Source of the DNA: Escherichia coli
GTDB taxonomy: Bacteria > Pseudomonadota > Gammaproteobacteria > Enterobacterales > Enterobacteriaceae
Assembly (NCBI RefSeq): GCF_044647545.1
Contig: NZ_CP172818.1
Length of the DNA stretch: 64,000 nucleotides
Direction: 5' to 3' (one strand)
Numbering within the stretch: position 1 is the stretch's first letter; each line of letters begins with the position of its first letter. A model generated the notes under the pieces. It did not search any database. It was not told the DNA's origin and saw only the letters and a list, made by a program, of their open reading frames with translations. Of this stretch, positions 672 to 25,032 are shown in pieces. The position numbers were made by a program, and so were the translations under genes.

Positions 672-1088
672 TTAATCAATAAACAAGGCGGGAGAAATAC
701 CGAATCGCGTTGCCAGTTTTTTAGCGTGTTCCAGCGTTAATTTCCTCTTCCCGCTCAAAACGCGTGACACCATCGATTTACTGCCTATTTCCGGAAGATC
801 GGAAAGGGTTAAACCATATTGATCCATAAGGGTACGAATCACGGCTATACCGCCAGGCATGGCTTGAGCCATGGCATTAAATTCCACAAATTCGGGCGCT
901 GATTCTTCCCACGCGGTTATTTTGGCACACACCAGATCCAGTAAGGGGTTTTCAGGATCGTTGAGCAGCAGATGATCTACCAGTTCCAGCGCCTGGGTGT
1001 ATTGTTCCTCGTTCTGAATACCCGCCAGAAAAGGTGCCACAGCAGTTAGCTTTTCTCCTGCTTGCAAGATGTCGGCAATCGCAATCAT
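672..1088 (-). CDS. higA: HigA antitoxin (XRE-type HTH)
   Basis: 138 aa ORF; start ATG overlaps the stop of the upstream toxin reading frame (ATGA). Confidence 0.85.
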   Translation of the reverse strand: MIAIADILQAGEKLTAVAPFLAGIQNEEQYTQALELVDHLLLNDPENPLLDLVCAKITAWEESAPEFVEFNAMAQAMPGGIAVIRTLMDQYGLTLSDLPEIGSKSMVSRVLSGKRKLTLEHAKKLATRFGISPALFID

Positions 1089-1398
1089 TTTTTCCCCTTA
1101 GTACGATGAACGGCGGTAAAGAAATCGTATTCTTTATGCGTCATAACTTCACGTATGTAGCACTTTTGCGATTCAAAAAAGACCATTGCTACAACACGTA
1201 ATTCATTGCCCCGACATTGAAAACATAATGCTTATCCAGATATTTGAAGTTATCCAGAGAAGGGAATACTGCTTTTAATGACTCAGGTTTTTTGAAATAT
1301 CCCTTAGCAATCGTGTTCCCCAGAGCCACCAACTCCGTTTTATGTTGCGGGTATTTTTCCGCAGCATCTTTCAATGCTTTTTGAGTTATCAGGTGCAT
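1085..1398 (-). pseudogene. higB: HigB toxin (RelE/ParE-like) disrupted by a -1 frameshift
   Basis: N-terminal 66 residues in one frame (ORF 1189-1398, MHLITQKALKDAAEKYPQHK...), remainder (NELRVVAMVFFESQKCYIREVMTHKEYDFFTAVHRTKGKK) in a second frame ending in the ATGA overlap with higA; frames switch at a C4 run 1209-1212. Confidence 0.7.
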
Positions 1399-1410
1399 TC
1401 TTCATCACGT

Positions 1411-1457
1411 CCGTTGACAAATTGGCAATATGATAACATCCGTTGACAGATTGGCAA
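1411..1457. promoter_or_regulatory. Two 18-bp imperfect direct repeats upstream of higB; putative HigA operator/promoter
   Basis: ccgttgacaaattggcaa (1411-1428) and ccgttgacagattggcaa (1440-1457), each a near-palindrome, immediately upstream of the higB start. Confidence 0.4.
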
Positions 1458-1570
1458 CGAATGAATTTATCTGTGTGACGGAAGAATAAACGTAGAAAAA
1501 CGCTAAACAAGAGAATGTAGAGGATGGTGACAGGAATTTTTTGTTTTATGGAAGCGCGATTCCAGAACTG

Positions 1571-1670
1571 GGCAGACATTGCCGGATGCGACGCTTGCCG
1601 CGTCTTATCCGACCTGGGGGTAATGTGCTGAACGTATGCCGGATAAGGCGTTTACGCCGCATCCGGCAGG
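1571..1670. repeat. REP/BIME cluster
   Basis: gccggatgcgacgc ... gccggataaggcgtttacgccgcatccggca motifs typical of E. coli REP elements. Confidence 0.7.
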
Positions 1671-1682
1671 TAACCCCCAATC

Positions 1683-16561: not shown

Positions 16562-16966
16562 ATGGCGGACACTCATCACGCGCAAGGGCCCGGTAAAAGC
16601 GTTCTGGGCATCGGGCAGCGAATTGTTTCCATCATGGTTGAAATGGTGGAAACACGTCTGCGGCTGGCGGTGGTGGAGCTGGAAGAGGAAAAAGCGAATC
16701 TCTTTCAACTTTTACTGATGCTGGGCCTGACGATGCTTTTCGCTGCATTTGGTCTTATGAGCCTGATGGTGCTAATTATTTGGGCGGTTGATCCGCAATA
16801 TCGCCTGAATGCGATGATTGCCACCACCGTGGTGTTGCTGCTACTGGCACTGATTGGCGGTATCTGGACGTTACGTAAATCGCGTAAATCCACCTTGCTG
16901 CGCCATACACGCCATGAGCTGGCAAACGATCGGCAGCTGCTCGAGGAGGAGTCCCGTGAGCAGTAA
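16562..16966 (+). CDS. yqjE: Inner membrane protein YqjE
   Basis: Start at MADTHHAQGPG gives 134 aa. Confidence 0.8.
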   Translation: MADTHHAQGPGKSVLGIGQRIVSIMVEMVETRLRLAVVELEEEKANLFQLLLMLGLTMLFAAFGLMSLMVLIIWAVDPQYRLNAMIATTVVLLLLALIGGIWTLRKSRKSTLLRHTRHELANDRQLLEEESREQ

Positions 16967-24893: not shown

Positions 24894-24949
24894 ACTTAAT
24901 AATTTCTTACAAAGTCTATTATTAATACCGTAGATATTTATTCATCTTA

Positions 24950-25025
24950 CTCCAAAAGCAAAAACCCGCCGAAGCGGGTTTTTATAAAGCTCCAAAAGCA
25001 AAAACCCGCCGAAGCGGGTTTTTAC
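24950..25025 (-). terminator. Tandem direct repeats each carrying a hairpin terminator downstream of rnpB
   Basis: Two copies of ctccaaaagcaaaaacccgccgaagcgggttttta (24950-24987, 24990-25025); on the minus strand cccgcttcggcggg followed by a T run. Confidence 0.7.
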
Positions 25026-25032
25026 GTAAAAC

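What the first reader, a model, noticed from the sequence alone, without database searches (positions are those of the whole stretch)
1411..1457. Pair of 18-bp near-palindromic direct repeats in the higBA promoter region
ccgttgacaaattggcaa and ccgttgacagattggcaa are spaced 29 bp apart immediately upstream of the higB start on the minus strand. Each has TTGaCA...TGGCAA inverted symmetry, as expected for a dimeric HTH antitoxin operator that overlaps promoter elements.
Basis: seen in the sequence. Interest (0 to 1): 0.3.

Follow-up and report, generated by a model that had tools for sequence, protein, structure and literature searches.

The report
HigA operator pair in higBA promoter
The two repeats are the two binding sites for the HigA antitoxin repressor, sitting on the -35 box and the start site of the E. 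coli higBA toxin-antitoxin promoter; this regulatory element is real and conserved but already described.

Summary
The 18-mers at 1411-1428 and 1440-1457 match at 17 of 18 positions, 29 bp apart, and lie 12 nt upstream of the higB ATG on the minus strand. Shuffled sequence gives 0.005 such repeats per window.

The window is E. coli chromosome with the gene order fadH-higA-higB-rlmG. The functional unit is a 17-bp pseudo-palindrome, GTTGMCA-N3-TGKCAAC. The distal copy (1442-1458) contains the -35 hexamer TTGCCA. An extended -10 (TGtTATCAT) lies between the copies. The proximal copy (1413-1429) covers the predicted start site.

The same two-site layout, centres 26-30 bp apart, occurs upstream of higB in the orthologous loci examined, down to 42% HigA identity. 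The motif appears nowhere else in those 90 kb. The HigA helix-turn-helix segment is invariant in a 12-sequence sample.

The K-12 promoter was mapped and shown to be HigA-repressed in 2010, and HigA-operator binding has since been reported.

Side findings: higB is frameshifted in this strain. The distal site has three natural alleles. One strain has lost one 29-bp repeat unit. In distant orthologs the two sites are inverted copies of each other, not direct copies.

The parts
1442..1458 (-). Distal HigA operator core. It reads GTTGCCAATCTGTCAAC on the minus strand, matches the family motif GTTGMCA-N3-TGKCAAC at 14 of 14 specified positions, and contains the -35 hexamer.
   Evidence: It lies inside a 27-bp near-palindrome at 1437-1463, which is perfect in K-12.
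1413..1429 (-). Proximal HigA operator core. It reads ATTGCCAATTTGTCAAC on the minus strand, matches the motif at 13 of 14 positions, and covers the predicted transcription start.
   Evidence: Its sequence is the same in all 7 E. coli promoter sequences aligned, including the single fused copy of strain AST85.
1404..1457 (.).
1452..1457 (-). Predicted -35 hexamer, TTGCCA.
   Evidence: consensus scan. It is orthologous to the promoter region mapped in K-12 (PMC2814082), but the figure with exact positions could not be read.
1430..1438 (-). Predicted extended -10, TGtTATCAT (TATCAT at 1435-1430), lying between the two operators.
1085..1398 (-). higB (RelE-like toxin), a pseudogene in this strain. 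The G-run at 1209-1212 has 4 G where K-12 has 5, which splits the frame into 69-aa and 33-aa ORFs.
672..1088 (-). higA: a 138-aa antitoxin and repressor with a C-terminal XRE-type HTH. It is intact and differs from K-12 HigA at one residue outside the HTH (V68 here, A68 in K-12).

Best explanation
The two repeats are the two operators of the chromosomal E. coli higBA (ygjNM) promoter. Each is a 17-bp pseudo-palindrome, GTTGMCA-N3-TGKCAAC, with half-site centres about 11 bp apart, which is the geometry for one dimer of the XRE-type HTH antitoxin HigA.

The distal site contains the -35 hexamer. The proximal site starts immediately after the -10 and covers the predicted start site. Bound HigA, or the HigB2-HigA2 complex, would therefore exclude RNA polymerase and repress the operon. 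Loss of HigA, which the literature attributes to Lon degradation under stress, would de-repress it.

- **Shown here:** the sequence anatomy, the overlap with the promoter consensus, orthology to the K-12 promoter, conservation of both sites across the family, and the invariant HTH segment.
- **Taken from the literature:** the promoter mapping, repression by HigA, and nanomolar binding.
- **Inferred:** one dimer per site, the exact start site (about 1423), and steric occlusion as the mechanism.

In this strain higB is frameshifted, so the operators would now mainly autoregulate an orphan higA.
For: - **Identity of the locus.** The window is 100% identical to E. coli FDAARGOS_497, where these genes are annotated higA and higB (frameshifted) between fadH and rlmG. 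Pfam gives HTH_3 for HigA and HigB_toxin for both higB fragments. HigA matches solved HigA structures such as 5IFG.
- **Promoter.** TTGCCA-16-TATCAT with an upstream TG scores 10 of 12. Its -35 lies inside the distal site.
- **Non-randomness.**
- **Phylogenetic footprint.** All 29 loci in which tblastn found higB upstream of higA (HigA 42-99% identical, HigB down to 33%) have at least one site scoring 11-14 of 14 in the distal position. 24 of them also have the second site at 10 or more of 14. Site starts lie 53-61 and 27-31 nt before the ATG (one locus is shifted by 15 nt), and centres are 26-30 bp apart. There are 86 motif hits of at least 13/14 within -80..0 of the higB ATG and none elsewhere in 90 kb on either strand.
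- **HTH conservation.** PEIGSKSMVSRVL is invariant in the 12 HigA orthologs aligned.
- **Literature.** Primer-extension mapping, inverted repeats drawn as putative binding sites, and lacZ fusions repressed by HigA are in PMC2814082. HigA and HigBA bind the operator with similar nanomolar affinity (PMC8138530, PMC10135005). E. coli hig O1-O2 sites are referred to in PMC12266136. HigA is listed as a RegulonDB TF, and a later survey drew a HigA binding sequence from RegulonDB.
Against: - No binding experiment could be run here.
- The papers that define the DNA probe (Xu 2019 and Jadhav 2020) and Fig. 1B of the 2010 paper were not readable. That HigA contacts exactly these bases therefore rests on orthology and conservation.
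- One review describes the E. coli module as having a single operator (PMC10135005), so occupancy of the weaker proximal site is less certain.
- The 29-bp centre-to-centre spacing (about 2.8 helical turns) puts the two dimers on different faces of the helix. That does not favour direct cooperative contact.
- In three enterobacterial orthologs (L017-L019) the proximal site is degenerate.
Confidence: 0.9

Rival explanations
1. The sites are bound by some other regulator, not HigA. The palindromes would belong to a regulon unrelated to the antitoxin.
For: No direct binding data could be inspected here. TTGCCA/TGGCAA-like half-sites are of low complexity and could resemble other motifs.
Against: The motif travels with higBA in unrelated genomic contexts from Escherichia to marine Gammaproteobacteria, and is absent from the rest of those loci and from the other 64 kb of the window. 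The HigA HTH segment is invariant alongside it. Ectopic HigA represses the K-12 promoter (PMC2814082).
Confidence: 0.04
2. The palindromes act as RNA or DNA hairpins, for example a terminator for read-through from rlmG or a 5'-UTR structure, rather than as protein-binding sites.
For: The K-12 distal site folds into a 12-bp stem of -20.1 kcal/mol, z = -6.1.
Against: - The window allele folds only to -10 kcal/mol, and the proximal site does not fold better than shuffles.
- The scan found no terminator-like site here.
- There is no Rfam match; the only hits nearby are sub-threshold REP-like matches at 1530-1674.
- Across orthologs the arms are conserved in sequence (GTTGMC and GKCAAC) rather than through compensatory changes.
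- The distal site lies upstream of the predicted start, so it would not be in the higBA transcript.
Confidence: 0.03
3. The repeat is only a recent 29-bp tandem duplication with no function of its own. It would be a by-product of slippage, with one copy sufficient for regulation.
For: The similarity extends into the flanks (25 nt at 88%). One natural strain, AST85, has collapsed the two copies into one. One review speaks of a single operator.
Against: A second site at the same distance is present in 24 of the 29 orthologous loci, including lineages where the two sites are inverted copies and so cannot be a tandem duplication. Both positions are tied to promoter elements.
Confidence: 0.03

Closest known systems
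E. coli K-12 higBA (ygjNM) promoter and operator (Christensen-Dalsgaard et al. 2010, PMC2814082; Jadhav et al. 2020 as summarised in reviews; HigA listed in RegulonDB)
   Same: It is the orthologous locus between fadH and rlmG. The proximal site, the -10, the leader and the HigA HTH are identical, and HigA is 137/138 identical.
   Different: This is a different allele of the distal site. K-12 has a perfect palindrome, CATCCGTTGCCA-ATC-TGGCAACGGATG. The window has two substitutions: C to T in the flank, and G to T at a position that is G or T across the family. In addition, higB is frameshifted here.
Proteus vulgaris Rts1 hig operators O1 and O2 (PMC12266136)
   Same: Both have the toxin gene first, two inverted-repeat operators that overlap core promoter elements (-35 and -10 in Rts1), and an HTH antitoxin dimer at each. 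In neither system is the toxin reported to increase operator affinity.
   Different: The antitoxin family is different (N-terminal HTH) and so is the recognition sequence. The paper treats the E. coli hig O1-O2 sites as distinct from the P. vulgaris ones. Here the proximal site covers the start site rather than the -10 itself.
Vibrio cholerae HigA2 operator TGTACGC-N5-GCGTACA (PMC11006873)
   Same: The antitoxin has a C-terminal XRE-type HTH. The operator is an inverted repeat with a 5-nt centre, of similar size (17-19 bp), and overlaps the promoter.
   Different: There is a single operator, the half-site sequence is different, and the antitoxin N-terminus is disordered rather than helical.

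Membership tests
Autoregulatory operator of a type II toxin-antitoxin operon (E. coli K-12-type higBA) | [quoted passage not shown] | tested here: met
   The sites are at 1413-1429 and 1442-1458. The -35 is at 1457-1452, the -10 at 1435-1430, and the higB ATG at 1398.
Autoregulatory operator of a type II toxin-antitoxin operon (E. coli K-12-type higBA) | It has two-fold (inverted-repeat) symmetry that fits a dimeric HTH protein. | tested here: met
   The arms GTTGMC and GKCAAC are separated by 5 nt, so half-site centres are about 11 bp apart.
Autoregulatory operator of a type II toxin-antitoxin operon (E. coli K-12-type higBA) | It is orthologous to the experimentally mapped, HigA-repressed K-12 promoter. 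| tested here: met
   The 80-bp promoter segment is 97.5% identical to K-12 (2 mismatches) in the same gene context. The experiments are in PMC2814082.
Autoregulatory operator of a type II toxin-antitoxin operon (E. coli K-12-type higBA) | The sites are conserved together with the cognate antitoxin's DNA-binding helix in orthologous loci. | tested here: met
   All 29 loci have at least one site, and 24 have both. There are no motif hits outside the promoters in 90 kb. The HTH segment is invariant in the 12 proteins aligned.
Autoregulatory operator of a type II toxin-antitoxin operon (E. coli K-12-type higBA) | The antitoxin physically binds these bases. | not testable with these tools
   Only second-hand evidence was available: reviews report nanomolar binding of HigA and HigBA to the operator. 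The primary papers could not be read.
HigB/HigA proteins (Pfam PF09907 HigB_toxin; PF01381 HTH_3 antitoxin) | The proteins match the family profiles above the curated cut-offs. | tested here: met
   HigA scores 31.7 bits on HTH_3 (cut-off 23). The higB N-terminal fragment scores 29.8 bits (cut-off 27). The C-terminal fragment scores 25.7 bits, just below the cut-off because the gene is split. No NCBIfam model matched.
REP/BIME extragenic palindromes | Sequence similarity to the REP consensus and many copies in the genome. | tested here: not met
   REP-like matches lie at 1530-1674, not at the repeats. The 80-bp promoter segment occurs once per genome.
Intrinsic terminator or structured RNA | A G+C-rich stem followed by a T-run, or a structure conserved through covariation. 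| tested here: not met

The most novel reading that the evidence does not exclude
The K-12-type HigA family may have an operator grammar that has not been described. Each operator would pair one GTTGCC-type half-site with one GTTGAC-type half-site. The two operators of a locus would co-evolve down to their non-symmetric central bases. In several marine lineages they are exact inverted copies (17/17 in five loci, three of them with identical sites, although spacers differ between loci). In Escherichia and Pseudocitrobacter they are direct copies. This would mean that the spacer and the asymmetric half-sites are read, and that the two dimers act as one unit whose relative orientation was flipped during evolution.
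Probability: 0.25. Interest if true: 0.3.

Novelty: already known. Interest (0 to 1): 0.12.

Why it matters
It confirms that a reader working from sequence alone can recognise an antitoxin operator, but it adds little new biology. Three things may be useful to people who work on toxin-antitoxin regulation:

- **A family-wide motif and spacing.** The operator motif is GTTGMCA-N3-TGKCAAC, in two sites usually 28-29 bp apart, and can be used to annotate this higBA family.
- **Natural operator and promoter variants in E. coli.** There are three alleles of the distal site, a 29-bp repeat collapse, and a 324-bp promoter and higB deletion.
- **An orphan antitoxin case.** In the lineage with the frameshifted toxin, intact operators now control only higA.

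Tried and rejected
- **Literature search by operator sequence strings:** only unrelated primer hits.
- **Primary papers:** Xu 2019 is not held, Schureck 2019 is not held, and no supplement is held for PMC12266136. The exact published probe sequence and the mapped +1 therefore could not be compared.
- **NCBIfam:** no model matched HigA or HigB.
- **Rfam on 600-1800:** only sub-threshold REP-like matches (naRNA4) at 1530-1674 and a chance CRISPR-DR hit. Nothing fell on the repeats.
- **Hairpin or terminator reading:** rejected.
- **Divergent + strand promoter using the TTGACA hexamers:** by eye there is no acceptable -10 at 16-18 nt, the scan reports none, and no + strand gene lies downstream.
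- **Sigma-54 -24/-12 reading of TGGCAA:** by eye, no TTGC follows at the required spacing.
- **Additional HigA sites elsewhere in the window:** only two 12/14 matches, at 16637 and 44352, which I take to be chance.

Full report
**Observation**

The + strand reads CCGTTGACAAATTGGCAA at 1411-1428 and CCGTTGACAGATTGGCAA at 1440-1457. The two match at 17 of 18 positions, 29 bp start to start. The repeat finder extends them to 25 nt at 88% identity, 1404-1428 against 1433-1457.

On the minus strand the region reads TTCATTC-GTTGCCAATCTGTCAAC-GGATGTTATCAT-ATTGCCAATTTGTCAAC-GGACGTGATGAAGA-ATG. The ATG at 1398-1396 is the higB start, so the proximal copy ends 12 nt before it.

A repeat this good is not expected by chance. 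The window holds two short-range direct repeats of at least 17/18, against a mean of 0.005 in 200 dinucleotide-preserving shuffles. The other one is the known repeated terminator unit downstream of rnpB. The pattern TTGNCAANNTGNCAA occurs only at these two places, against 0.05 expected.

**Context**

The window is E. coli chromosome and is 100% identical to strain FDAARGOS_497 over this stretch. The genes are:

| Gene | Coordinates | Strand |
|---|---|---|
| fadH (3' end) | 1-627 | + |
| higA | 672-1088 | - |
| higB | 1085-1398 | - |
| rlmG | 1683-2819 | - |

REP-type palindromes lie at about 1530-1680, between rlmG and the higBA promoter.

- **HigA.** HigA carries a C-terminal HTH_3 domain. 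It matches the solved E. coli HigA structures (5IFG and others) at E=4e-86. It differs from K-12 HigA only at residue 68, outside the HTH.
- **higB.** HigB matches Pfam HigB_toxin but is split into 69-aa and 33-aa ORFs. The G-run at 1209-1212 has four G where K-12 has five. RefSeq marks the gene as frameshifted in the identical record.

**Anatomy**

The consensus scan finds one good sigma-70 match on the higB strand: TTGCCA (1457-1452), a 16-nt spacer, then TATCAT (1435-1430) preceded by TG. It scores 10 of 12.

The -35 lies inside the distal repeat. The -10 sits in the 12-bp gap between the two 17-mer cores. A start about 7 nt after the -10 (about 1423) would fall inside the proximal repeat.

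The symmetric unit is a 17-mer, GTTGMCA-N3-TGKCAAC. The distal copy is at 1442-1458 and matches all 14 specified positions. The proximal copy is at 1413-1429 and matches 13 of 14. Half-site centres are 11 bp apart, which is one helical turn and fits an HTH dimer. The two site centres are 29 bp apart.

**Comparison within E. coli**

The 80-bp promoter segment occurs once per genome, in 2843 of 5426 complete genomes. It has three main alleles that differ only in and next to the distal site.

| Allele | Distal site | Genomes (approx.) |
|---|---|---|
| K-12 type | CATCCGTTGCCA-ATC-TGGCAACGGATG (perfect 12+3+12 palindrome) | 1515 |
| HS/O157 type | one G to T change in the right arm | 484 |
| Window type (also ST131) | a further C to T change in the left flank | 812 |

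These counts may each be inflated by up to about 16 partial matches. The proximal site is the same in all 7 sequences aligned. The "direct repeat" look is therefore strongest in the non-K-12 alleles. In K-12 the distal site is primarily a palindrome.

Other states of the locus also exist:

- **29-bp collapse.** Strain AST85 lacks exactly one 29-bp repeat unit. The two sites are fused into one and the -10 is removed. Up to 16 genomes show partial coverage of this kind, but only AST85 was inspected.
- **324-bp deletion.** By the even-step sampling, roughly 30% of genomes carry a 324-bp deletion (window-equivalent 1162-1485). It removes both operators, the promoter and higB codons 1-79, and leaves higA.
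- **Locus absent.** By the same sampling, roughly 16% of genomes have no higBA between fadH and rlmG.

**Comparison across species**

A scan of one genome per species with HigA returned 37 loci. tblastn found a higB homolog upstream of higA in 29 of them, with HigB identity down to 33%.

In every one of these loci the region 25-75 nt before the higB ATG contains at least one 17-mer of the same form. 24 loci have two at a score of 10/14 or better. Centres are 26-30 bp apart, mostly 28 or 29.

Outside Enterobacteriaceae the distal site usually reads GTTGAC(A/T), which gives a near-consensus -35, TTGACA or TTGACT. In most of these loci a -10-like hexamer (for example TATAGT) follows and runs into the first bases of the proximal site, and in most a GGAG Shine-Dalgarno sequence follows the proximal site.

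As a control, motif matches of at least 13/14 number 86 within -80..0 of the higB ATG (both strands counted) and zero elsewhere in the 90,233 bases of these loci.

The HigA segment PEIGSKSMVSRVL, within the region that matches the HTH_3 profile, is invariant in 12 orthologs of 44-83% overall identity to the window protein. The arms are conserved in sequence rather than through compensatory changes. That is the signature of a protein-binding site rather than an RNA structure.

**Literature**

- Christensen-Dalsgaard et al. (PMC2814082) mapped the K-12 higBA promoter by primer extension. They drew -35, -10 and inverted repeats as putative protein-binding sites. They showed that a PhigBA-lacZ fusion is active only without the locus and is repressed by ectopic HigA, and that induction depends on Lon.
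- Reviews summarise Jadhav et al. [quoted passage not shown]
- PMC12266136 refers to the E. coli hig O1-O2 sites.
- RegulonDB lists HigA and HigB-HigA as transcription factors. A later survey drew a HigA binding sequence from RegulonDB.
- I could not read Fig. 1B of the 2010 paper or the two structural papers. The exact published +1 and the probe sequence are therefore not compared.
- From memory only: the Jadhav abstract mentions a 33-bp palindromic DNA. That would fit the 27-bp K-12 distal palindrome.

**Mechanism**

The best-supported reading is simple autorepression by promoter occlusion. One HigA dimer, alone or as the core of HigB2-HigA2, binds each 17-mer. The distal dimer covers the -35 and the proximal dimer covers the start site.

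When HigA is degraded, the promoter fires. According to the reviews, the toxin does not change operator affinity. This module would then be an "antitoxin-only" switch rather than one governed by conditional cooperativity.

- **Shown here:** anatomy, conservation and promoter overlap.
- **From the literature:** repression and binding.
- **Inferred:** stoichiometry per site, occlusion, and the start position.

The 28-29 bp spacing places the dimers about a quarter turn out of phase, so direct cooperative contact is not expected. One review calls the operator single, and the proximal site is degenerate in three enterobacterial orthologs. The distal site may therefore be the main one.

**Rivals**

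| Rival | Case against | Confidence |
|---|---|---|
| Another regulator binds the sites | The motif travels with higBA and with the invariant HigA HTH segment | 0.04 |
| RNA or DNA hairpin | The window allele folds poorly, there is no T-run and no covariation, and the distal site lies upstream of the predicted start | 0.03 |
| Functionless tandem duplication | The two-site layout is older than the direct-repeat arrangement | 0.03 |

**Extra observation**

Within a locus, the two sites resemble each other beyond the symmetric arms. In many non-enterobacterial loci the proximal site is the exact reverse complement of the distal site. This holds at 17/17 in five loci, three of which share identical sites. 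The central 5 nt match 5/5 in the inverted sense against 0-2/5 in the direct sense, even though these central bases differ between loci.

In Escherichia and Pseudocitrobacter the two sites are direct copies, at 14-16/17. In about half of the sites tabulated, the operator pairs one GTTGCC-type half-site with one GTTGAC-type half-site.

This hints that the asymmetric positions matter and that the orientation of the pair was flipped in the enterobacterial lineage. I did not test this further, and the relatedness of some marine loci inflates the count.

**Verdict**

This is the known HigA operator pair of the E. coli higBA promoter, in a strain whose toxin gene is broken. Novelty is "already known" and interest is low.

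Noticed in passing
window 1085-1398 (frameshift at the G-run 1209-1212): higB is a pseudogene in this strain. The G-run has four G where K-12 has five, so the frame ends after 69 codons. higA and the promoter are intact. The exact 81-bp allele occurs in 58 of 5426 complete E. coli genomes, including strains named ST648. ST131, which has the same promoter allele, has an intact higB.
   Followed up: partly
L008 (E. coli AST85) 1429-1539, equivalent to window 1429-1457: A natural 29-bp deletion removes exactly one repeat unit. It fuses the two operators into one and removes the -10 hexamer, which looks like slippage or recombination between the direct repeats. Up to 16 genomes show partial coverage of the promoter segment, but only this one was inspected.
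   Followed up: partly
L003, equivalent to window 1162-1485; L004: The locus is polymorphic in E. coli. About half of the complete genomes have the full promoter. By even-step sampling, roughly 30% carry a 324-bp deletion that removes both operators and higB codons 1-79 and leaves higA without its promoter. Roughly 16% have no higBA between fadH and rlmG.
   Followed up: partly
window 1437-1463 compared with L002 (K-12-like), L005, L006: The distal operator has three natural alleles: the K-12 perfect 12+3+12 palindrome (about 1515 genomes), an HS/O157 allele with one mismatch (about 484), and the window/ST131 allele with two (about 812). Both changes fall at positions that vary across the HigA family, so they are predicted to be neutral for binding.
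   Followed up: partly
loci L021-L045, 25-75 nt upstream of higB: In many marine gammaproteobacterial orthologs the two operators are exact inverted copies of each other, including the non-symmetric central bases (17/17 in five loci). In Escherichia they are direct copies. About half of the operators tabulated pair one GTTGCC-type half-site with one GTTGAC-type half-site.
   Followed up: partly
window 1530-1680: REP/BIME-type palindromes (GCCGGATGCGRCG units in both orientations) lie between the rlmG stop and the higBA promoter. They give sub-threshold Rfam naRNA4 matches.
   Followed up: no
window 24949-25030: A roughly 40-bp unit containing an intrinsic terminator (CTCCAAAAGCAAAAACCCGCCGAAGCGGGTTTTTA) is tandemly duplicated. 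It lies under or next to the rnpB annotation in other E. coli genomes, where copy number and identity vary between strains.
   Followed up: partly
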